Position numbers and translations under genes: made by a program
Notes under the pieces: model-generated
Seen by the model: the letters and a program-made list of their open reading frames with translations, nothing else
Databases searched by the model: none
Told to the model about the DNA's origin: nothing
Origin: Escherichia phage vB_EcoP-720R6
Sequence record: ON470605
Strand: one strand, 5' to 3'
Length of the DNA: 46,068 nt
Shown here: one piece after another, positions 8,353-29,622 of the stretch
Layout of the letters: the number at the start of each line of letters is the position of its first letter
Position numbering within the stretch: position 1 is the first letter of the stretch

Positions 8353-11298
8353 TTAGTGCCTCCCTTCTATTAAGTCTAACCTAGCTTTTATTCTTTCTAT
8401 TTCTCTGCGCTGCCATGCTGCCTCGATATAGAATAAGAGATCAGGTCTGACTCCCCATCTAGATCCTGCTGGCGTTATTTCAACGCGCTCAATGATGTCT
8501 TCCATTACCATCACTGGATTATCATCCTCATCAACAATGATGCTCCCGTCATTATCAGTCAGCGGCATTTCCCTTTGGCCAGTAATGACGTCATCATATA
8601 CTGCGGGATAATCGTCATAGCAAAGAAAGGCATAGCGGCATGTTGTGCTTTCTTCTTCCATGAGTCCGTGAGAAATAAGAACATCACGAAGTTGCTGCGC
8701 GATTACACCATGATGTATCCTCGCCCCTTCTTCCCCCTTTATAGCGACAGCGTTCAGCCATTTATAAGCGATATACCTGACGTCACCCCAGGCATCCAGC
8801 AATGCTTCGTCAGGAGAGACCGGCTCTGTCTTTAATGTTCCGTCACTGGTAACCACAGGATTGGAGCCAAGATAAACTGTCGAGAACCTGTTTCCCGGAC
8901 CACCAAGAGCATTTACATTATCAAGATAAGGTTTAACATCTCCGTTCTCAAAAAGATGTTCGAGTGCGTTATATACCGCGCGACGTGGAGTACTGCTTCC
9001 GGAACCATGCAACGTTATCATTGCACCATCTGCTGAAGACGTTGTTTCACCGCCGCTAACGATTAATCTCTGAGCGGTAACATCATCAGACGGTACTTTC
9101 TTCGCAATAATGGCGTAATTACCCTCAAGTTTGACTTCCGCGCGAACTTGTCCTGATGTACCGGCATGGACAGTCAGTGACTGGACGGCAACATCATCTG
9201 TGAAATCAACGGGTACAGGAACCGTCCTCACGCCTGACGTCGACATAAAAGTAGGAAGCGTTCTGTTAGGAGTGGCTCCGTAGACAAAATCCCTTGAAAC
9301 AAATTCTTCCTGTTTAATTTTCACCCTGAAACAATACAAATCAGCCGGGTGACCATCGTGAACATAAGGATATTTTCTGTTGTTATCCCCTATGCTCCAT
9401 GGGTTTAGAAAGTCTTCCCCACCGAAAATGTAGTACAGCCAGTTGTCTTTGATACAAACTGAACCAACACCAACCGCAGAGTTAACTATTCCGCCCTGAT
9501 AAATCTGATCAGTAACATTAACCCACTCTACATTATCCAGACTCCACTCATTGACGTTAACTCTGGTCATAAATGTTCTTGGATAATTTCCTGCATAACG
9601 GTTATCAGGTTCTCCTCCTTCCCACTCACCAAATGCGCGCTCACTGCCAAAAATAATCAGCTCATCGCCAACTTTGGCAAAAGGAAGGTTTGAGTGATGA
9701 ACATTATTTGGGAAGCGAAGAGAATTCCATGATGTACCTAAATCAGAGCTTCTGTGCAATGAACTACCGGGTTGAGTACTTAATGTCCCCCTGGTCGTCA
9801 GATACAGAATGCCATCATAATATTTTACACATGGCTCAGATGCATTCGCCTCATATTCTACAGGTATGCGTCTGCGAACAAAGCTACCAGGAGAACCGAA
9901 AGCATCAGAGAAATAGAGTATCCCAAGCTCGCGTGGATCAATATCACCATTATGGTAGCCAACAGCAAAACTGTTATCGCTAATCGTCGCAAAACTGTGA
10001 ATCTCAGTAACAGGAGTGCTTCCGTCAACAAAAGAAGGAATAGTTCCAAGACTGGTTTTTCTCCATGGTGACGAGTGAAATGATGTACCAAAACTCCAGT
10101 ATCTACCCTCGTTATTCTGATCCACATCCTGGGTATTTTGCGTCGTAACTGTAAAAGTATTTTTATCAATGACAGTAGTCACCGTCATATTCCCGGTAAC
10201 ACCTGTAACACCAGAGTTTGAGAAGTTGACAAAATCACCAGCAAATAATCCGTGATCAGTAATGCGAATATAAGCGACTTGCTGATTTGCTGCTTTCGTT
10301 ATACCACCATAAACGCGAAGGCTGCGACTCATTGGGCGATCCCACAACTCTGCAACCTGCAGTTTATTTCCGCTCACGGTCCGCGTCTCAATTACAGCAA
10401 AAAGGCGATTTCTGACAACCCCCATACTCATGCAGTGATAGTTAACTGTGGGATAGTTTTCATGTAAATCTGTAAGCCATTCCGGCGTTGTCCAGGTCTT
10501 CCCGTCATCTCCTGAGCGAACCCATGCAACATGGAGGTTATTTACACCATGGCGGTCTCCAGCCATAAAAGGCGCATAGATGACATTGTCATATACAAAC
10601 GTTTTATCCTGCGTCCAGGCGTTGTACCACGGTGTATCTGTAATTTTAAATAACTCTCCTTGGATAAAATCTTCAGAAGCATAAAAAAGAGGCTGACCCG
10701 GTATTCTCTCAAATAAAAAACGAGCATTTTTAAATCGACTGACATCTGGAAGAGTTGATACTTTAAAAGTAAGCCCTCGCCCATCTATCTTTTCACCACC
10801 TGTTGCAACAGAAAGTAATTCTGATAGAGCTGATGTATCATCATGAACACCATCACCAATAGCCCCCCAACCTCTTACATCATAACTGTCTCTCCATCTT
10901 GCTATCTGAAGTTTTGGGTATTTATTCGCTCCATCTGGGTCTTCTAATTGCTGTCGTAACTGATCAGGATCATACTTCAGCACATTCGGAAAATAGAACT
11001 GCTGTGTACCATACGCATCATAAACAGCCATAGAATGGCCTTGCACGGTTACGAATTTGGCAATCTGTCCGTTATATACCGGATATCCAGCAGCGTTAAT
11101 GATTATTGGTTGCGAAACAGGAATGTGAGAACCGTCTTCGTTCTCTACATAAACCTGAATCTGGTTTTCAGGATTTACCGGGTCAGTGTCAATTTTACCG
11201 ATATAAATTTTGCCATTGGCTACGGCTTTAAAAGAACGCGCCATAGTGAAGAGTTGCGAAGGCATACTCACTACAACATTGGCTGTAATGTCTGTCAT
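8353..11298 (-). CDS. Tailspike: P22 gp9-like N-terminal head-binding domain, sialidase-like body with two Asp-boxes (probable endo-N-acetylneuraminidase), C-terminal intramolecular chaperone domain
   Basis: 981 aa; N-terminus [43 protein letters not shown] resembles P22 gp9; Asp-boxes SGDDGKTW and SSDLGTSW; C-terminus YAFLCYDDY...[30 protein letters not shown] resembles the self-cleaving chaperone domain of endosialidases. Confidence 0.7.
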
Positions 11299-11366
11299 TT
11301 AATTTGCTCCAGATACAAGGAATCGCCGCAGCATTGCCACAGTGATGCATTATTAATCAAACAAAG

Positions 11367-11381
11367 AGACCACTGTGGTCT
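11367..11381. promoter_or_regulatory. Palindrome AGACCAC-T-GTGGTCT, candidate Mnt operator
   Basis: Perfect 7-bp inverted arms around a central T, in the 146-bp spacer between the mnt start (11445, plus) and the tailspike start (11298, minus). Confidence 0.45.
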
Positions 11382-11444
11382 TATTGAGGATGCAACCAGC
11401 AGATAATAAGATGCCGATCCACTCACAAAAGCGAGGCATCAAGA

Positions 11445-11696
11445 ATGGGAAGAGATGACCCGCAATTTAATCTGCGGCTACCTTACGAATTAAAGGAAAA
11501 ACTAAAACAGCGAGCCAAATCCAATGGCCGCTCTCTTAATTCAGAATTAGTTCAGATAGTGACTGATGCTGTATCAAAGCCATCCAAAATTTCAGGCTAT
11601 CGAGACGATGCGGAACGCATCGCTGATGAGCAGTCCGAACTTGTTAAGAAGATGGTGTTTGATACGCTGAAGGATTTGTACAAAAAACCCACCTGA
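11445..11696 (+). CDS. mnt: Mnt-like ribbon-helix-helix repressor (Arc/MetJ family)
   Basis: 83 aa, MGRDDPQFNLRLPYELKEKLKQRAKSNGRSLNSELVQIVTDAV...SELVKKMVFDTLKDLYKKPT; RHH N-terminus and Mnt-like length/C-terminus; no arc or ant next to it. Confidence 0.8.
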   Translation: MGRDDPQFNLRLPYELKEKLKQRAKSNGRSLNSELVQIVTDAVSKPSKISGYRDDAERIADEQSELVKKMVFDTLKDLYKKPT

Positions 11697-11712
11697 TGGT
11701 GGGTTCCATTTA

Positions 11713-12132
11713 TTAGTCTTGCTTTGTGGACGGTATAAGTGATGCATTTGCCTCTTTTGGCTTCAAGGTATACATCCCACCATTAAATGGATCTACAGCA
11801 AGCCAACCAATTAACCCACCAAACACAAAGTTTCCACCAATATACCAACCATTAGCATTGGCTTTGATTGGCAGGGTAACTGGTTCGTACCCATCCTTCT
11901 CCATAGTGATCTGGTAGCTCTTTTTGCCAAAATAACTACCATCTGACTTGGCAAGAGTTACTCCTTGCGGGGTCTTACCTTGCGCAACAATCACGCCTGA
12001 TTCGTCTTTTACCTTAAAGCTCGCACCGGAAGGATTGCTGTTCACTTGCACAAGCTGTGTTTCGTCACCAACAATAGTTGCGCACCCAGATAACAATATA
12101 GCGCCAGCAACGACGCCGATAATCCTCTTCAT
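11713..12132 (-). CDS. Lipoprotein with PEGA-like domain and C-terminal glycine-rich hydrophobic segment (moron; function unknown)
   Basis: 139 aa; signal peptide plus lipobox MKRIIGVVAGAILLSGC; PEGA-like NSNPSGASFKVKD...GKTPQGVTL; GWYIGGNFVFGGLIGWLAV near C-terminus. Confidence 0.65.
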   Translation of the reverse strand: MKRIIGVVAGAILLSGCATIVGDETQLVQVNSNPSGASFKVKDESGVIVAQGKTPQGVTLAKSDGSYFGKKSYQITMEKDGYEPVTLPIKANANGWYIGGNFVFGGLIGWLAVDPFNGGMYTLKPKEANASLIPSTKQD

Positions 12133-12204
12133 ATTACTTTCCGTTTTGTTAGAATCAGAAAGATCTTAATAATAAAAAGTATTTTCGTGAAGATATTGTC
12201 GATT

Positions 12205-12217
12205 GAGTTAATAACTC
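12205..12217. promoter_or_regulatory. 13-bp palindrome GAGTTA-A-TAACTC in divergent promoter region of the two lipoprotein genes
   Basis: Seen directly at 12205-12217, between the minus-strand start at 12132 and the plus-strand start at 12267. Confidence 0.25.
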
Positions 12218-12266
12218 ATTTACACCCAACAGTGCCATGATGGCAAAGATAAGGAGAGTTAATCAT

Positions 12267-12752
12267 ATGAAAAAATCACTGTTAATTATCCCGCTTCTGC
12301 TGGCAGGGTGTGCAAAGGTTAGCGACTATCAGGCAAGTTGCGAACAACGCTATCCAAAGCTTAGCGATATGGCTAATTGCCTTGATGCTAGCGTGAAGAG
12401 CGACTCACGCATGGCATCAGCACCAACACCTAAGTTATATGTCCTTGCTGCGAAGATGCTCGGGCAAGGTGTCGATGATGGCAAGATAAGTGACGCGCAG
12501 GCAAGACTTGAGCTTCAGAATCTTTATGTTCAATTACAAAGCCAAGAACAAGCCCAACAAATAGCACAAAGCCAAGCATTCCAGCAGGCTTTATTGAATT
12601 ATCAGGCTGTAAACACAATGCAAGCTATCGAGCAAAAAGCGCGCCAGCCTGTTATAACTCAACCTTACCCAACACGCGTTGACACTTACACAAACTGCAA
12701 TTCAGGGTTTGGAAATACAGTCACATGCAACAGTAGCAGTAACATCAGATAA
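12267..12752 (+). CDS. Lipoprotein with Gln-rich coiled-coil-like region (moron; function unknown)
   Basis: ATG at 12267 with RBS AAGGAGAG; MKKSLLIIPLLLAGC lipobox, residue after Cys is Ala; Q-rich LELQNLYVQLQSQEQAQQIAQSQAFQQ; opposite orientation to surrounding late genes. Confidence 0.65.
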   Translation: MKKSLLIIPLLLAGCAKVSDYQASCEQRYPKLSDMANCLDASVKSDSRMASAPTPKLYVLAAKMLGQGVDDGKISDAQARLELQNLYVQLQSQEQAQQIAQSQAFQQALLNYQAVNTMQAIEQKARQPVITQPYPTRVDTYTNCNSGFGNTVTCNSSSNIR

Positions 12753-12842
12753 CAATCAGCAAAGGTATCGCCTATGCAGAGGGATACGATAAACCTCGCG
12801 TTCTACATATTTGGTTTTTGCACGTTCCTGGTGTTTGAAAAG

Positions 12843-14840
12843 CTATTCTGACAACGCATCAGACTTAGCCCCCTGAGTAAGGGCGTTAATGGCCTTTTGC
12901 GCCTGCTGCATGGCTTTCTCAAACGCTGTTGATCCGCGTGGGGTGTTTGCCATTCGGAGCATTGCATTTCTGAATGGCTCGCTCTCATAGGCGCGAGTAA
13001 GAAGTCCGTAGCTTACTGCTGCGCCAGTTGTAGCCGGGTTCATTGCCGTCCCATACCCAATTATGAACGGGATAGTTTGCTGCCCTGTGGGTGTTGTTAC
13101 TGCCGCTTTTGCAGCCTGCTGCGTGGATTGCAGGTAGTTTTTTAATCCTTTCAGATAAGCAGCGTCCTGCCCCTTAAATGTGATGCCAGTCTGGTTTTGC
13201 AGGATGTTAAGCTGCCGAAGGAACTGGTCAGGGGATCCGCCAGATTTCTCCATCGCCTTTCCAATGATGCCATTGCGCATTTGCGTCCTGCCAACACGAC
13301 CAACTGAGTTATACAGAGTCTTAATTTCCGATTTGTTCTTGCTGAATAGCATGTTGTTGACAACTTCCGGCGTCAGGTCGCCTTTCATGAGAACATTCTT
13401 CAGCCTGGTATTCTTTAGTTTCGCCGCTTCGTCAGCGTAGACGGCATTGGCCTGCTGATATTTACGGAGAGTATCGTTGCCAAGATTCTGACCAATGGCA
13501 CCATTGATATCGTCGGTCATTGCCTTGTAAACGCGCTGAATGGCAGCATCGGAACGGTTTGGTAACACTGGTCGCTCACCTTTCACGTCCATTCTGAACT
13601 GGCTGCGCAGGTCGCTTAATTGCTTCAAATCCAGATTTACCGGACCATCAGGACCAGCATTGCGAACAAGTTCATCACGATATGATTGAAGTTTTGAAAT
13701 AGTCTCGTTATCAGCAACCTTACCAAGCTTCTGCAGGTTAGATATCTCAGTATCAATCTGCTGAATTGCTCGCGCAGGCTGGATATTGACTCCCGCCATT
13801 GCATTCTGAACCTGCTCAAGACGGTTCCCTGCAGCACGACGAATTCCTGATGTTTTCGCTTTAAGGCTGTCAATAACAACAGCTGGATCATACTCACCGA
13901 ATTTATCAGCAAATCTCTGCACCAACTGGCTTCTCGCTTCCTGTTGCGTTGCTCTCATTCCGCTTGTGCCAGCCAGGGGGATATTTTCCGCTGTCGTCTG
14001 CGCCATTTTCCCGACGCGGGAAGTAGGCTGTAACAGGTCTGTGGTGTGCAGAGGAACTCCTTCACGCTCTGCAAATCTGATAGCCTGCTGCGCTTCTGGC
14101 GCAATAGCACCACTAACGCCACGATAAGCAGCACCTAATCCACGTCCAGCAGCGTTAATAGCGCCGCCTGCCAGAACGCCAACACCTAAATCGGTGGCGA
14201 GGGCTTCCGCATCATCTTTCGCACTATTTGCAGCAAGTGACCCGACTGCGTTTTCAGCGAGAAGGCGAGTTGCACCCTGAGCGATTCTACCAGCGAGTGT
14301 TGGTGCCTGTGTTGCCGCTCTCTCAATGCCAGCAGGAGTGAGGTAAGGCAATGCCTCAGCAAATACCCTGCCCTCTGTAGTTTGTGGAGTCAGCGCGCCT
14401 TGCTGAAGGCCAAAGTCCTGCTCTAATCCCTGCGTTGTTACTCGTGGCGCTGGGTGATATGTCCCATCGCCAATTCCGAGTTTACCGCCAGCCCAAGCCG
14501 CCGCGCTTGTTACAGCATCGGCAACTGATGCAGGTATGTTTGCCACGTTCACGCCAGCCTGCACCAGTCCGCGACCAGTTTCTTTCACGGCTTCACCAAG
14601 ATCAGACATAAATCCACTTTGCTGTGGTTGTTGCTGTGCTACTGGTTGCTGTGTATCCACTGGCTGCACAGATGGCAATGGATAGGCAGCATAGAAAGCT
14701 TGCTTAGCCTGCTCTGCATTTTCTCCGGCTTGCGGGGCCACGACTTCATTGAAGTATTGCTCCTGAGCCTGCGCTTTTTGTTCTGGTGCTAACGCCTGAT
14801 ACTGTGGAGAGGCGATAACATCTTTCCATGCTTTAGCCAT
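12843..14840 (-). CDS. Ejection/injection protein, P22 gp16-like by position
   Basis: 665 aa, last and largest of the gene block after the needle gene; Gly/Ala/Gln-rich; assignment by synteny with P22 order 26-14-7-20-16. Confidence 0.6.
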   Translation of the reverse strand: MAKAWKDVIASPQYQALAPEQKAQAQEQYFNEVVAPQAGENAEQAKQAFYAAYPLPSVQPVDTQQPVAQQQPQQSGFMSDLGEAVKETGRGLVQAGVNVANIPASVADAVTSAAAWAGGKLGIGDGTYHPAPRVTTQGLEQDFGLQQGALTPQTTEGRVFAEALPYLTPAGIERAATQAPTLAGRIAQGATRLLAENAVGSLAANSAKDDAEALATDLGVGVLAGGAINAAGRGLGAAYRGVSGAIAPEAQQAIRFAEREGVPLHTTDLLQPTSRVGKMAQTTAENIPLAGTSGMRATQQEARSQLVQRFADKFGEYDPAVVIDSLKAKTSGIRRAAGNRLEQVQNAMAGVNIQPARAIQQIDTEISNLQKLGKVADNETISKLQSYRDELVRNAGPDGPVNLDLKQLSDLRSQFRMDVKGERPVLPNRSDAAIQRVYKAMTDDINGAIGQNLGNDTLRKYQQANAVYADEAAKLKNTRLKNVLMKGDLTPEVVNNMLFSKNKSEIKTLYNSVGRVGRTQMRNGIIGKAMEKSGGSPDQFLRQLNILQNQTGITFKGQDAAYLKGLKNYLQSTQQAAKAAVTTPTGQQTIPFIIGYGTAMNPATTGAAVSYGLLTRAYESEPFRNAMLRMANTPRGSTAFEKAMQQAQKAINALTQGAKSDALSE

Positions 14841-16141
14841 TAATCACCCCATAGTGAAGAAAAATTACTGCCAGTAGTAGGTTGTTGCGCTGGCGTATTC
14901 TGTACTGGCTCCTGATAATCAAACTGTTTTTTAACAGTGCTCAACTTGCTTTCAAGCTGATTTCTAATCTTTCCGATAGAGTCACGAAAAGCCTTTTCAC
15001 TCATTTTGGGGCTTAGGGCACCAACCGCATCGGATAATTTTTTACCCTCAGCATCTGAAAGAGCGCCCATACCCTTCAGGGACTGCACCATAGGAAGGAA
15101 TGTTTGAGCTTTAAAGGTGTCGAGCCTTGCTTCAAAGTTAGCCGCATCAGAGCCAGGGACTGTCGGAAACGCTGAGCGAATTCCTACTGCTTTTGAAAGG
15201 CCGGGGCTTTGCTCTATCTCGTTGAGAGAATCAAGCGCGGTGCTGAACGTATCAACTGCACCCTGAGCGGCGGCCTGCCTGTCAGCGCGGGCTATGTCAG
15301 CCTTTTGCCGAACATCTGCCTGTTTCTGTTTTAGCTCTTCAAGCTTTAACTGATTGCTTTCTCTGGCTATCTGTCTGTCCAGAGCCTTTTCTTGTAATTC
15401 TGCTCTTTGTATTTCGCGGGAAAGAGCAGCATTCTGTGCGCTGATGTTCTGTCCACGTATCTGGATGTCCTGACCACGTGCTGTTAGTGCTTCTCCAGCC
15501 TGATTGCTGCGGATTGTCTCTGCCAGCCTGCCTCGGTCAATTTCACGACCAGCCATCTTGTCCTGAACATTGAAGTAATCAATCGGACCAAGAGCAGCCA
15601 TTCCAAGGTGATCAACAAACTCACCAAATCCTGAAGGGTTCTGCTGATACATCTGAGCAACGCTGTTAGGGTCAACACCGACGCGAGTCAGTTCCTTGGC
15701 GTTGTTTTGCAGCCATGATTGCATTGCTTCTGGAGACGATGACGCAAGGCGTGCGCCAGCCGCTAAGGTGCCGATAGAATTACGCTGGTCTTCGTCTGCC
15801 CACTTCATACCAGACTGAATCTTCTCTAATTGACCAGGGTATTTGGTCATCAGATCTCGAACCTGCTGTCGATCACCGGACTGGATGGCTGCCGCATATT
15901 CTTTTTGGAATGCAGCATCCGCTTCCTGTTGCTTTGCGGCTTGATATGTTTGAGCGACACTACCCAGTCCCTGCAACGCCTGAAGGCCGATGTTATTGCG
16001 ACCTGAACGCTCCATTTCGTTGTTCTGGCGAATATAGGCCAACGCCTCACTTACATCACTTGCCTTTGGCGCATTTGAGTTTTGCCCACCGATACCAGCA
16101 AGAAAACCGCCTGAGTTGATTCCTTGTTGCCAAGTAGCCAT
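14840..16141 (-). CDS. Ejection protein, P22 gp20-like by position
   Basis: 433 aa, coiled-coil rich; synteny. Confidence 0.55.
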   Translation of the reverse strand: MATWQQGINSGGFLAGIGGQNSNAPKASDVSEALAYIRQNNEMERSGRNNIGLQALQGLGSVAQTYQAAKQQEADAAFQKEYAAAIQSGDRQQVRDLMTKYPGQLEKIQSGMKWADEDQRNSIGTLAAGARLASSSPEAMQSWLQNNAKELTRVGVDPNSVAQMYQQNPSGFGEFVDHLGMAALGPIDYFNVQDKMAGREIDRGRLAETIRSNQAGEALTARGQDIQIRGQNISAQNAALSREIQRAELQEKALDRQIARESNQLKLEELKQKQADVRQKADIARADRQAAAQGAVDTFSTALDSLNEIEQSPGLSKAVGIRSAFPTVPGSDAANFEARLDTFKAQTFLPMVQSLKGMGALSDAEGKKLSDAVGALSPKMSEKAFRDSIGKIRNQLESKLSTVKKQFDYQEPVQNTPAQQPTTGSNFSSLWGD

Positions 16142-29466: not shown

Positions 29467-29542
29467 TGGTGCTGGTTAACGGACTTGAACCGCTACCCAT
29501 TCGCTTACAAGGCGACTGCTCTACCATTGGAGCTAAACCAGC
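29467..29542 (-). tRNA. tRNA-Thr (anticodon UGU), CCA encoded
   Basis: Manual cloverleaf: acceptor GCTGGTT/AACCAGC, D-arm GCTC-CAATGGTA-GAGC, anticodon loop CTTGTAA, T-arm with TTCAAGT loop, discriminator A then CCA. Confidence 0.7.
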
Positions 29543-29547
29543 ATATT

Positions 29548-29622
29548 TGGCGGGACAGCGTGGACTCGAACCACGATAAGAAGGTTAACAGCCTTCCGTA
29601 ATGACCTTTATACGACTGACCC
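29548..29622 (-). tRNA. tRNA-Asn (anticodon GUU), CCA encoded; one acceptor-stem mismatch
   Basis: Manual cloverleaf: anticodon stem GAAGG/CCTTC with loop CTGTTAA, T-arm CGTGG-TTCGAGT-CCACG, acceptor GGGTCAG/CTGTCCC with U4-U69 mismatch, 3-bp D-stem; 5 nt from tRNA-Thr. Confidence 0.6.

What the first reader, a model, noticed from the sequence alone, without database searches (positions are those of the whole stretch)
11299..12842. Moron locus at the P22 sieA position: two divergent lipoprotein genes with a palindrome between them
Between the last ejection-protein gene and the tailspike, where P22-like phages carry sieA/immI or other accessory cargo, this element has a plus-strand lipoprotein gene (12267-12752, Q-rich) and a minus-strand lipoprotein gene (11713-12132, PEGA-like domain plus glycine-zipper-like hydrophobic segment). 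They share a 134-bp divergent control region holding a 13-bp palindrome. Both have clear signal peptides and lipoboxes and resemble no structural gene. Small phage lipoproteins in such hot spots often block superinfection at the envelope, so this is a candidate uncharacterised exclusion or envelope-modification module.
Basis: partly seen in the sequence, partly recalled or inferred. Interest (0 to 1): 0.62.

Follow-up and report, generated by a model that had tools for sequence, protein, structure and literature searches.

The report
Two independent prophage lipoprotein cargo genes
Between the DNA-injection genes and the tailspike of a P22-like prophage of E. coli lie two real, prophage-expressed outer-membrane lipoprotein genes of unknown function; they are separately exchangeable cargo genes rather than one system, and one always sits where related phages carry the superinfection-exclusion gene sieA.

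Summary
The sequence is as described. There are two canonical lipoprotein genes, lipoA (11713-12132, minus) and lipoB (12267-12752, plus). They are 134 bp apart, and the spacer holds a palindrome that is really 15 bp long.

The locus is the known hypervariable "ant moron" of P22-like phages. It is 99% identical in phage Gally of E. coli LF82. Published RNA-seq for Gally shows both lipoprotein genes transcribed from the prophage while the neighbouring injection gene stays silent.

- **Selection:** both genes are under strong purifying selection (dN/dS 0.03-0.05).
- **Independent cassettes:** lipoB occurs in 186 and lipoA in 126 of 5,426 E. coli genomes, and the two occur together in about 25. 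The palindrome exists only at this particular junction.
- **lipoB:** it has no relative in Pfam, PDB or the viral structure library. In eight genera it occupies exactly the position and orientation of sieA, and sieA is absent there.
- **lipoA:** it is a PEGA/transthyretin-like β-sandwich. It also occurs in lambdoid tail-gene moron slots and in chromosomal settings with no phage genes nearby.

Exclusion of incoming phage is plausible for lipoB but untested.

The parts
8353..11298 (-). Tailspike gene (flank): P22 head-binding domain, then K1 endosialidase, then an S74 intramolecular chaperone. It is the last gene of the prophage.
   Evidence: Pfam Head_binding 1.5e-66, End_beta_propel 7.9e-233, End_tail_spike 7.5e-78, Peptidase_S74 1.6e-10. 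PGAP annotates 'phage tailspike protein' in the identical Ecol_AZ159 locus.
11367..11381 (.). Perfect 7-1-7 palindrome AGACCACtGTGGTCT between mnt and the tailspike start. It is a probable Mnt operator in what remains of the P22 Pant/Pmnt region.
   Evidence: Inverted repeat I2. The terminator scan also picks up the hairpin. Its position matches the arcO/Pmnt-Pant region annotated in epsilon34. The operator assignment is inference.
11445..11696 (+). mnt, an Arc/Mnt-family ribbon-helix-helix repressor of 83 aa. The window carries no arc or ant gene.
   Evidence: Pfam Arc 2.8e-22 and Repressor_Mnt 2.2e-18. It is 76% identical to P22 Mnt. It is annotated as Mnt in Gally and epsilon34.
11686..11705 (.). 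Hairpin AACCCACCtgatGGTGGGTT between the convergent mnt and lipoA genes, read as a bidirectional intrinsic terminator.
   Evidence: Terminator scan. The homologous site is annotated as a Rho-independent terminator in epsilon34.
11713..12132 (-). lipoA, a 139-aa lipoprotein. Signal peptide 1-16, lipid-attachment Cys17, PEGA/transthyretin-like β-sandwich (residues 25-93 and 121-131), and a conserved hydrophobic Gly/aromatic-rich insert (94-120).
12133..12266 (.). 134-bp AT-rich divergent spacer (30.6% GC), a composite of three pieces. 12133-12176 travels with lipoA, 12243-12266 travels with lipoB, and 12177-12242 is specific to this junction.
   Evidence: Composition. Cassette boundaries by blastn against epsilon34, O111:H8, VSe13 and ST131 loci. 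The junction piece is present in only 25 of 5,426 E. coli genomes. Promoter-like hexamers on the plus strand at 12128-12155 and 12146-12173. A minus-strand candidate, TTCACG-17-TAAGAT at 12191-12163, was read by eye (inference).
12204..12218 (.).
   Evidence: Chance is about 0.05 per spacer of this kind. It is unique in the window and absent from all other lipoA or lipoB loci. It lies in the junction-specific segment.
12267..12752 (+). lipoB, a 161-aa lipoprotein. Signal peptide 1-14, lipid-attachment Cys15, helical domain (about 18-100) with conserved Cys25 and Cys38, a Q-rich helix (14 Gln in residues 84-125), and a C-terminal loop between Cys144 and Cys154.
   Evidence: ORF. phrog_6067, unknown function, 7.8e-110. 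No Pfam, NCBIfam, PADLOC or PDB sequence match. AlphaFold2 residues 20-100 pLDDT 81-88, remainder low. No fold match in PDB or BFVD. Conserved cysteines. dN/dS 0.037-0.047. Identical in protein sequence to GALLYPH_13.
12753..12842 (.). 90-bp spacer between the convergent lipoB and gp16 genes.
   Evidence: Coordinates. The same spacer occurs in VSe13. In other hosts it is only 9-18 bp. The scan found no terminator here.
12843..14840 (-). gp16-type ejection (DNA transfer) protein gene (flank). It is the last gene of the virion-assembly block.
   Evidence: ORF. Annotated as an injection protein, similar to P22 gp16, in Gally. Followed by a gp20-type gene at 14840-16141.

Best explanation
The interval is the accessory 'ant moron' of a P22-like (Lederbergvirus, CUS-3/Gally-type) prophage. 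It is built from three cassettes that move independently: mnt with its operator, lipoA, and lipoB.

**Shown**
- Both lipoprotein genes are genuine and strongly constrained.
- In the near-identical Gally prophage both are transcribed in the lysogen from their own promoters while the adjacent late gene is silent.

**Inferred from sequence rules**
- After Lgt/LspA/Lnt processing, both proteins are lipid-anchored. [quoted passage not shown]

**Inferred mechanism for lipoB**
- lipoB is a phage-specific substitute for SieA. It is confined to P22-like prophages and always sits in the sieA slot.
- Its disulfide-stabilised helical domain and C-terminal Cys loop most likely bind one of two things: the periplasmic face of an outer-membrane component that incoming P22-like virions need, or the ejection-protein conduit (gp7/gp20/gp16) itself. 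Either way, DNA delivery by superinfecting relatives is blocked at the outer-membrane or periplasmic stage rather than at the inner membrane.

**Inferred mechanism for lipoA**
- lipoA is a host-derived β-sandwich lipoprotein with a conserved hydrophobic glycine-rich hairpin that probably dips into the membrane or mediates oligomerisation.
- Several phage types have captured it, and it sits beside their DNA-delivery genes. It most likely alters an envelope property, either blocking DNA entry or stabilising the outer membrane, in a way that is not specific to a phage type.

**Relationship between the two**
- They do not form a two-component system, and the palindrome is not a conserved operator.
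For: **Anatomy and lipoprotein features:**

**Locus identity:** Gally is 99.2% identical over the whole interval. The 'ant moron' concept comes from PMC2629481.

**Prophage expression** (PMC9928086, S1 Table), values in log2(fpkm+5):
- lipoB homologue: about 6.1 in LB, 8.0-8.2 in the B1/B6 samples (taken to be DMEM culture), 10.3 in macrophages at 1 h.
- lipoA homologue: about 5.5, then 10.0-10.4, then 11.0.
- Convergent injection gene: 3.6-4.2 throughout.

**Constraint:** dN/dS 0.03-0.05.

**Independence of the cassettes:**
- Boundaries at 12176 and 12243.
- epsilon34 has lipoA without lipoB. VSe13, O104:H4, ST131, Serratia and Morganella have lipoB without lipoA.
- Prevalence is 186, 126 and about 25 of 5,426 genomes.

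**lipoB in the sieA slot:**
- P22 sieA and HS1 type-B sieA are convergent with gene 16 and 22 bp from it, on the mnt strand.
- lipoB lies between the tailspike and the gp16/gp20 ejection-protein genes in every locus with enough flank, across Escherichia, Salmonella, Serratia, Morganella, Providencia, Tatumella and an Enterobacteriaceae MAG. The Proteus phage Brookers also carries it.
- No type A or B SieA is encoded in the window or in any of about 110 lipoA or lipoB loci.
- In O104:H4, mnt-orf-lipoB mirrors P22 mnt-ORF59a-sieA.

**lipoA promiscuity:**
- It occupies the V-G-T-lipoA-H and I-lipoA-J slots in lambdoid prophages.
- These are the slots that hold the HK97 morons gp15 and gp22/23. 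gp15 is a published superinfection-exclusion protein (reference list of PMC10883804).

**Precedent:** prophage lipoproteins encoded inside structural clusters exclude OmpA- or LamB-dependent phages (PMC11893012).
Against: - No functional assay exists for either protein. Position in a known exclusion slot is only circumstantial.
- There is no sequence or fold similarity to SieA, Cor, Llp or any PADLOC model. The Cor PHROG hits cover only the signal peptides.
- lipoB does not co-vary with the gp16 type. lipoB is 98% identical where gp16 is 34% identical. That gives no sign of a specific arms race with gp16.
- The lipoA family has members in settings with no phage genes nearby: Enterobacter next to ydcSTUV-patD, and a 168-aa form next to pepN. 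The lipoB N-domain superfamily also has a distant member in such a setting. This points to a cellular envelope role.
- The strong rise in culture medium and macrophages fits a host-interaction role as well as it fits exclusion.
- Outer-membrane localisation rests on the +2 rule alone. No SignalP/LipoP run and no experiment supports it.
Confidence: 0.45

Rival explanations
1. **Host-fitness conversion, not anti-phage.** One or both lipoproteins change envelope properties for the benefit of the lysogen in the animal host. Examples would be outer-membrane stabilisation, or resistance to serum, antimicrobial peptides or bile, in the manner of λ Bor/Iss or TraT.
For: - Both genes are low in LB stationary phase. 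They rise about 4- to 45-fold in the B1/B6 culture samples and inside macrophages, reaching log2 values of 10-11 in LF82.
- The lipoA family includes members with no phage genes nearby, in Enterobacter and in a pepN-linked form.
- The β-sandwich plus hydrophobic glycine-rich hairpin of lipoA looks like an envelope structural element.
- The prophage type is common in clinical E. coli.
Against: - Deleting the whole Gally prophage did not change LF82 survival in THP-1 macrophages at 6 or 24 h.
- lipoB is restricted to P22-like prophages and to the sieA slot in eight genera. A general fitness factor would not be expected to show that pattern.
- No similarity to Bor, Iss or TraT families appeared in the Pfam or NCBIfam scans.
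Confidence: 0.3
2. **The first reader's reading.** A single two-gene exclusion or envelope-modification module, co-regulated through a palindromic operator in the shared 134-bp divergent control region.
For: - The genes are adjacent and divergent, with an AT-rich spacer and a perfect 15-bp palindrome.
- Both transcripts rise under the same conditions in Gally.
Against: - Each gene occurs mostly without the other: 186 and 126 genomes against about 25 with both. P(lipoB given lipoA) is about 0.20. lipoB is present in about 0.21 of genomes matching any part of the locus.
- Cassette boundaries fall inside the spacer, and the palindrome lies in the junction-only 66 bp.
- The palindrome is absent upstream of lipoA or lipoB elsewhere and has no second copy in the window.
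- Its chance occurrence is about 5%.
- mnt, the tailspike gene and the gene beyond it rise under the same conditions too, so the co-induction is not specific to the pair.
Confidence: 0.06
3. **Lytic-cycle helper.** The lipoproteins act late in infection, for instance by masking receptors on lysing cells and debris so that progeny are not wasted (the second role of T5 Llp), or by assisting envelope disruption. They would not act in the lysogen.
For: - lipoA is co-directional with the late operon and lies between gp16 and the tailspike. Late transcripts heading for the tailspike must cross it.
- In lambdoid prophages lipoA is co-directional with the tail genes.
- A weak Rz-like spanin PHROG hit for lipoB covers residues 5-36 only, at E 0.049.
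Against: - lipoB is transcribed against the late operon.
- Both genes are expressed in the lysogen while late genes are silent or repressed.
- The spanin hit covers only the signal peptide. The prophage has its own lysis cassette elsewhere.
Confidence: 0.1

Closest known systems
P22 SieA superinfection-exclusion protein (types A, B and C)
   Same: lipoB has the same genomic slot and orientation: convergent with gene 16, on the mnt strand, between genes 16 and 9. Both are confined to P22-like prophages. The sizes are similar (161 aa against 164-212 aa). Both are expressed from the prophage. The two are mutually exclusive at the slot.
   Different: SieA is a polytopic inner-membrane protein with the motif FxRYPxEAxxFNK. 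lipoB is a lipobox lipoprotein with no transmembrane segment after the signal peptide and shows no sequence similarity. If it excludes phage, it must act from the outer-membrane or periplasmic side.
Cor (φ80, N15, HK022) and T5 Llp outer-membrane lipoproteins that inactivate FhuA
   Same: They are small phage-encoded lipoproteins. They are encoded next to genes for the host-recognition or DNA-delivery apparatus and expressed from the prophage or early. They act from the periplasmic face of the outer membrane. This description rests on established knowledge and the references.
   Different: There is no homology. The Cor PHROG matches only residues 1-20 and 1-29, which are the signal peptides. 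lipoA and lipoB are two to three times larger. P22-like phages do not use FhuA, and no target is known.
HK97 gp15 moron (superinfection exclusion at DNA entry)
   Same: In lambdoid prophages lipoA occupies the identical slot, between the G/T tail chaperone genes and the tape-measure gene. In others it occupies the I-J slot where HK97 carries the morons gp22/23.
   Different: gp15 is a 62-aa protein, described as an inner-membrane protein from my own knowledge. It is not a lipoprotein. No homology was tested or is expected.
mEpimmI prophage lipoproteins Lpp021 and Lpp010
   Same: They are lipobox proteins encoded inside the structural gene cluster of temperate coliphages. Experiments show that they exclude phages using OmpA or LamB (PMC11893012).
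   Different: They belong to a different phage group. tblastn of lipoA and lipoB against 50,697 phage records found only 3 and 4 records, none of them mEp phages.
λ Bor / Iss serum-resistance lipoproteins
   Same: They are prophage-encoded outer-membrane lipoproteins expressed in the lysogen. Bor of the LF82 prophage Perceval is induced in DMEM, as these genes appear to be.
   Different: No sequence match appeared in Pfam or NCBIfam. The fold prediction is different.
PEGA / transthyretin-like β-sandwich domains (Pfam PF08308; S-layer SlaB, carboxypeptidase regulatory domain, CnaB)
   Different: The Pfam PEGA score is below the gathering threshold, and only 9 of 57 relatives reach E 0.01 or better. 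The conserved 27-residue hydrophobic insert and the lipid anchor are not part of the PEGA definition. The fold carries no functional information.

Membership tests
Bacterial lipoprotein (Lgt/LspA/Lnt pathway), sorted to the outer membrane | N-terminal signal peptide with a basic n-region, a hydrophobic h-region and a lipobox [LVI][ASTVI][GAS]C | tested here: met
   lipoA MKRIIGVVAGAILLSG-C17. lipoB MKKSLLIIPLLLAG-C15. The Cys is invariant in lipoA homologues and nearly invariant (at least 90%) in lipoB homologues. The highest hydropathy windows are at the N-termini. This is a pattern-level test only, with no SignalP or LipoP run.
Bacterial lipoprotein (Lgt/LspA/Lnt pathway), sorted to the outer membrane | No Lol-avoidance residue (Asp) at +2, and actual lipidation and outer-membrane localisation | tested here: inconclusive
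   Position +2 is Ala in both proteins, which predicts outer-membrane sorting in E. coli. Acylation and localisation cannot be tested with these tools.
PEGA domain (Pfam PF08308) | HMM score at or above the gathering threshold of 20.8 bits | tested here: not met
   lipoA scores 17.6 bits at E 0.0037. Nine of 57 relatives match at E 0.01 or better, the best at 0.0013.
PEGA domain (Pfam PF08308) | Transthyretin-like or carboxypeptidase-regulatory-like β-sandwich fold | tested here: met
SieA superinfection exclusion (P22 types A-C) | [quoted passage not shown] | tested here: met
   This holds for lipoB. lipoA lies in the same moron but is oriented with the late operon, next to mnt.
SieA superinfection exclusion (P22 types A-C) | Sequence homology, including the FxRYPxEAxxFNK motif, and several transmembrane helices (inner-membrane protein) | tested here: not met
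   tblastn with P22 SieA and HS1 type-B SieA gives no hit in the window at E 1e-3 or better. Neither protein has a hydrophobic segment of transmembrane strength after the signal peptide. The motif is as described. Type C was not tested.
SieA superinfection exclusion (P22 types A-C) | Blocks DNA injection by P22-like phages, with escape mutations in gp16 and gp20 | not testable with these tools
   This needs plating and DNA-ejection assays.
Cor / Llp receptor-blocking lipoproteins | Homology to the Cor family (phrog_1119) beyond the signal peptide | tested here: not met
   The phrog_1119 matches cover residues 1-20 of lipoA (E 0.0034) and 1-29 of lipoB (E 0.092) only.
Cor / Llp receptor-blocking lipoproteins | Inactivation of a defined outer-membrane receptor such as FhuA | not testable with these tools
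   No target is known. The secondary receptors of CUS-3 or Gally-type phages are not established in anything read here.
Moron (independently expressed accessory gene inside a phage operon) | Present or absent among otherwise syntenic relatives, and no role in morphogenesis | tested here: met
   The slot content varies. Among 75 IMG/VR loci it holds lipoB, a 122-aa ORF, an hkcB-like gene or nothing. P22, epsilon34, VSe13 and HS1 all differ.
Moron (independently expressed accessory gene inside a phage operon) | Transcribed in the lysogen independently of the surrounding operon | tested here: met
   Published RNA-seq of the 99% identical Gally prophage shows both genes 3-4.5 times the prophage background in LB and up to log2 10-11 in other conditions. 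The adjacent injection gene stays at background. The authors' 5-fold cut-off in LB excluded them. This was not measured in the strain the window comes from.
Known anti-phage defence systems (PADLOC-DB v2) | Match to any defence-protein model | tested here: not met
   No family matched at E 1 or better for lipoA, lipoB or Mnt.

The most novel reading that the evidence does not exclude
lipoB defines a previously unrecognised family of outer-membrane-anchored superinfection-exclusion proteins with no Pfam family and no detectable fold relative. It replaces the inner-membrane SieA in P22-like prophages of at least eight enterobacterial genera. In E. coli it is about nine times commoner than the HS1-type sieA allele. 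It would block the ejection-protein trans-envelope conduit from the periplasmic side of the outer membrane. lipoA would be a second, host-derived lipoprotein that blocks DNA entry by both podoviruses and siphoviruses.
Probability: 0.3. Interest if true: 0.6.

Novelty: new variant of a known kind. Interest (0 to 1): 0.42.

Why it matters
P22-like prophages are common in E. coli, Salmonella and Shigella. How their three ejection proteins build a channel across the envelope is still being worked out, and SieA is the only exclusion factor known to target that step.

If lipoB excludes phage, it would be a second, unrelated factor. It sits in the same slot but is anchored in the outer membrane. It would give a genetic handle on the outer-membrane and periplasmic stage of DNA delivery, through escape mutants in gp7, gp20, gp16 or the needle. 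It would also bear on phage therapy against K1 and other clinical E. coli, because 3.4% of complete genomes carry it.

The work also corrects a published statement that Gally carries no morons. Its two lipoprotein genes are among its most strongly expressed genes in culture medium and in macrophages.

If neither protein affects phage, the locus is ordinary prophage cargo of unknown envelope function.

Full report
**1. What is in the sequence**

Window 11299-12842 lies between a tailspike gene and a gp16-type ejection-protein gene. The tailspike gene (8353-11298, minus strand) encodes a P22 head-binding domain followed by K1 endosialidase domains. The ejection-protein gene is at 12843-14840 on the minus strand.

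The interval holds three genes, not two.

- **mnt (11445-11696, plus strand).** It encodes an 83-aa Arc/Mnt-family repressor (Pfam Arc 2.8e-22, Repressor_Mnt 2.2e-18). It is 76% identical to P22 Mnt. No arc or ant gene is present.
- **Operator-like palindrome.** A perfect 7-1-7 palindrome, AGACCACtGTGGTCT (11367-11381), lies between mnt and the tailspike start. It is probably the Mnt operator.
- **Terminator.** A hairpin at 11686-11705 separates mnt from the convergent gene lipoA. The homologous site is annotated as a terminator in epsilon34.
- **lipoA (11713-12132, minus strand, 139 aa) and lipoB (12267-12752, plus strand, 161 aa).** Both have canonical lipoprotein signal peptides, ending LSG-C17 and LAG-C15, with Ala at +2. 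The Cys is invariant in the lipoA homologues and nearly invariant in the lipoB homologues.
- **Spacer.** The two genes are divergent and separated by a 134-bp spacer of 30.6% GC.
The 13-bp palindrome is present at 12205-12217. It is really a 15-bp 7-1-7 repeat at 12204-12218.

**2. Are the genes real?**

Yes. dN/dS against homologues 89-98% identical in DNA is 0.037-0.047 for lipoB and 0.031-0.045 for lipoA. Both are tighter than mnt, at about 0.12. lipoA has 669 homologue clusters and lipoB has 94. Each falls in a PHROG of unknown function, at full length.

**3. What the locus is**

The whole interval is 99.2% identical to Escherichia phage Gally, a Lederbergvirus and a prophage of the adherent-invasive E. 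coli strain LF82. It is 100% identical to a prophage of E. coli Ecol_AZ159 inserted next to ybhB.

[quoted passage not shown] They called it the one hypervariable accessory slot of the P22-like morphogenetic cluster (PMC2629481). [quoted passage not shown]

**4. Expression**

The Gally paper concluded that Gally has no morons, using a cut-off of 5 times background in stationary LB. Its S1 Table shows otherwise. Values are log2(fpkm+5).

| Gene | LB stationary | B1/B6 samples | Macrophage, 1 h | Macrophage, 6 h |
|---|---|---|---|---|
| GALLYPH_13 (lipoB, 100% aa identity) | 6.3 / 6.0 | 7.9-8.2 | 10.3 | 8.5-8.7 |
| GALLYPH_14 (lipoA, 99% aa identity) | 6.2 / 4.8 | 9.8-10.5 | 11.0 | 9.4-9.5 |
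| GALLYPH_12 (convergent injection gene) | 3.6-4.2 in all conditions | | | |

I take the B1/B6 samples to be culture in DMEM, from the table caption.

- In LB the two genes were 4.5 and 3.3 times background, just under the authors' cut-off.
- Both genes are therefore transcribed from the prophage on their own, which is the defining behaviour of a moron.
- mnt, the tailspike gene and the gene beyond it rise in the same conditions.
- Deleting Gally did not change survival in macrophages.

**5. Not a module**

- **Cassette boundaries.** blastn against other loci gives sharp boundaries. The mnt+lipoA block (11445-12176) is shared with epsilon34 and an O111:H8 prophage. The lipoB block (from 12243 into gp16) is shared with VSe13 and an ST131 prophage. 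Positions 12177-12242 occur only where these two blocks meet.
- **Junction frequency.** That 66-bp piece, which carries the palindrome, is present in 25 of 5,426 complete E. coli genomes.
- **Gene frequencies.** lipoB is in 186 genomes and lipoA in 126. The fraction of lipoA genomes that also carry lipoB is about 0.20. That is about the overall frequency of lipoB among genomes matching any part of the locus, 186 of 865.
- **Slot content.** In 75 IMG/VR P22-like loci with lipoA, the position next to gp16 holds lipoB, a 122-aa ORF, an hkcB-like gene or nothing.
- **Palindrome.** It has no other copy in the window or in any other lipoA or lipoB locus. A palindrome of this size turns up in about 5% of shuffled spacers. 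Nothing supports it as a conserved operator.

**6. lipoB**

- **No recognisable relatives.** It has no match in Pfam, NCBIfam, PADLOC or PDB sequences.
- **Predicted structure.** AlphaFold2 predicts a helical domain over residues 18-100 (pLDDT 81-88 over residues 20-100). A long Q-rich helix follows, then a low-confidence C-terminus. Foldseek finds nothing in PDB or BFVD.
- **Conserved cysteines.** Cys25 and Cys38 are invariant in 46 homologues. A further pair at Cys144/Cys154 is conserved (Cys154 invariant). This fits a disulfide-bonded periplasmic protein.
- **Wider family.** A full HMM scan finds 249 representative relatives of the N-terminal domain. They are mostly lipoproteins of 125-135 aa that end in a similar T-x-C...G...C-x-[ST]-[YR] loop. 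No Pfam family covers them. The one distant member whose context could be read had no phage genes nearby.
- **Position.** The lipoB clade proper (48-100% identity) is another matter. In every locus with enough flank it lies between the tailspike and the gp16/gp20 ejection-protein genes, on the opposite strand. The hosts are Escherichia, Salmonella, Serratia, Morganella, Providencia, two Tatumella species and an Enterobacteriaceae MAG. The gene calls show it convergent with the gene next to it. It is also present in the Proteus phage Brookers.
- **Match to sieA.** This is exactly the place and orientation of sieA in P22 and of the validated type-B sieA of prophage HS1. In O104:H4 the order mnt-orf-lipoB mirrors P22 mnt-ORF59a-sieA.
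- **Mutual exclusion.** No type A or B SieA is encoded in the window or in any of about 110 fetched loci.
- **Prevalence.** The HS1-type sieA allele is in 21 of 5,426 E. coli genomes, against 186 for lipoB.
- **No co-variation with gp16.** lipoB is 98% identical where gp16 is 34% identical.

**7. lipoA**

- **Predicted structure.** AlphaFold2 gives a confident β-sandwich (residues 25-93 and 121-131, pLDDT about 96). It is interrupted by a conserved Gly/aromatic-rich hydrophobic insert (residues 94-120, pLDDT below 50, mean hydropathy 1.3).
- **In P22-like prophages.** It always sits convergent with mnt and points the same way as the late operon.
- **In lambdoid prophages.** At 69-81% identity it is found in lambdoid siphovirus prophages of E. 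coli (for example strain ED1a) and Proteus. There it lies between the G/T tail chaperone genes and the tape-measure gene, or between I and J. These are the two slots where HK97 carries its morons gp15 and gp22/23. gp15 is a published exclusion protein (reference).
- **Without phage neighbours.** It also occurs in Enterobacter after ydcSTUV-patD, and as a 168-aa form beside pepN.
- **Conclusion.** lipoA is a host-family envelope lipoprotein that temperate phages of two morphotypes have captured repeatedly.

**8. Most likely mechanism**

*Shown:* there are two independent lipoprotein morons, both constrained and both expressed from the prophage.

*Inferred from position, host range and precedent:* lipoB is a functional replacement for SieA that acts from the outer-membrane or periplasmic side on DNA delivery by P22-like phages. 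Precedents are Cor and Llp, and the mEpimmI lipoproteins that exclude OmpA- or LamB-dependent phages. I put this at roughly 0.35.

lipoA more likely changes a general envelope property. That could be a block to DNA entry by several phage types, or outer-membrane stabilisation.

The main rival for both is a host-fitness role of the Bor/Iss kind. The strong induction outside LB and lipoA's relatives in non-phage settings favour it. The unchanged macrophage survival of ΔGally and lipoB's strict confinement to the sieA slot count against it.

**9. Novelty and verdict**

The slot and its variability are known, and both genes already sit in databases as hypothetical proteins. I found three things described nowhere in the literature searched:

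1. lipoB is a conserved, P22-like-specific occupant of the sieA position across eight genera, with no recognisable relatives.
2. lipoA recurs in the HK97-type moron slots of lambdoid phages.
3. Existing RNA-seq shows both genes are expressed morons.

The 'module with a palindromic control region' does not. Function remains to be tested, so interest is moderate.

Noticed in passing
window 11299-11696: An Mnt repressor gene is present without arc or ant. A perfect palindrome, AGACCACtGTGGTCT (11367-11381), lies directly upstream of the tailspike gene. The P22 immI circuit is reduced here to Mnt plus an operator that may now gate read-through or Pant-type transcription into the tailspike. In Gally, mnt rises 40-fold in macrophages and the tailspike gene is among five genes induced 6- to 40-fold (PMC9928086).
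   Followed up: partly
window 8353-11298: The tailspike is a chimera: a P22 head-binding domain, then K1-specific endosialidase domains, then an S74 chaperone (CUS-3 type). Gally shares residues 1-115 at 96.5% identity but has a shorter tailspike gene (2,400 bp against 2,946 bp). The receptor module has therefore probably been swapped on an otherwise near-identical locus.
   Followed up: partly
window 1-~8300: The first ~7.6 kb is host chromosome: the 3' part of uvrB, bioDCFB, bioA and ybhB, by 100% identity with Ecol_AZ159. The prophage end lies between ybhB and the tailspike gene. The attachment site was not mapped.
   Followed up: no
window 29467-29622: Two phage-borne tRNA genes, tRNA-Thr(tgt) and tRNA-Asn(gtt), lie on the minus strand between the Q antiterminator and the holin gene.
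   Followed up: no
NZ_OZ038590.1 3216136-3218931 (hit H31): One E. coli genome carries this same locus at 100% identity but split by an ISEc52 (IS3-family) insertion. It may be a natural knockout worth examining.
   Followed up: no
IMG/VR loci such as L036, L092 (upstream of lipoA); L026 4101-4466: A recurrent alternative occupant of the slot between gp16 and lipoA is a 121/122-aa ORF beginning MFLFISFGATAEC..., in the sieA orientation. It is present in about 19 of 75 loci and, together with lipoB, in an ST131 prophage. It is another uncharacterised candidate envelope or exclusion gene.
   Followed up: no
L006 10261-11424 and relatives (E. coli ED1a-type lambdoid prophage): The lambdoid prophages that carry lipoA between T and H also carry a porin gene (Porin_1/Porin_4) inserted between M and L. 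This is a second envelope moron inside the same tail-gene cluster.
   Followed up: no
window 12233-12245: A second short palindrome, TGCCATgATGGCA, lies just upstream of the lipoB ribosome-binding site and spans the cassette boundary at 12243. Only its right half is shared with other lipoB loci.
   Followed up: partly
PMC9928086 S1 Table compared with its main text: [quoted passage not shown] GALLYPH_13 and GALLYPH_14 are 4.5 and 3.3 times background there and far higher in the other conditions.
   Followed up: yes
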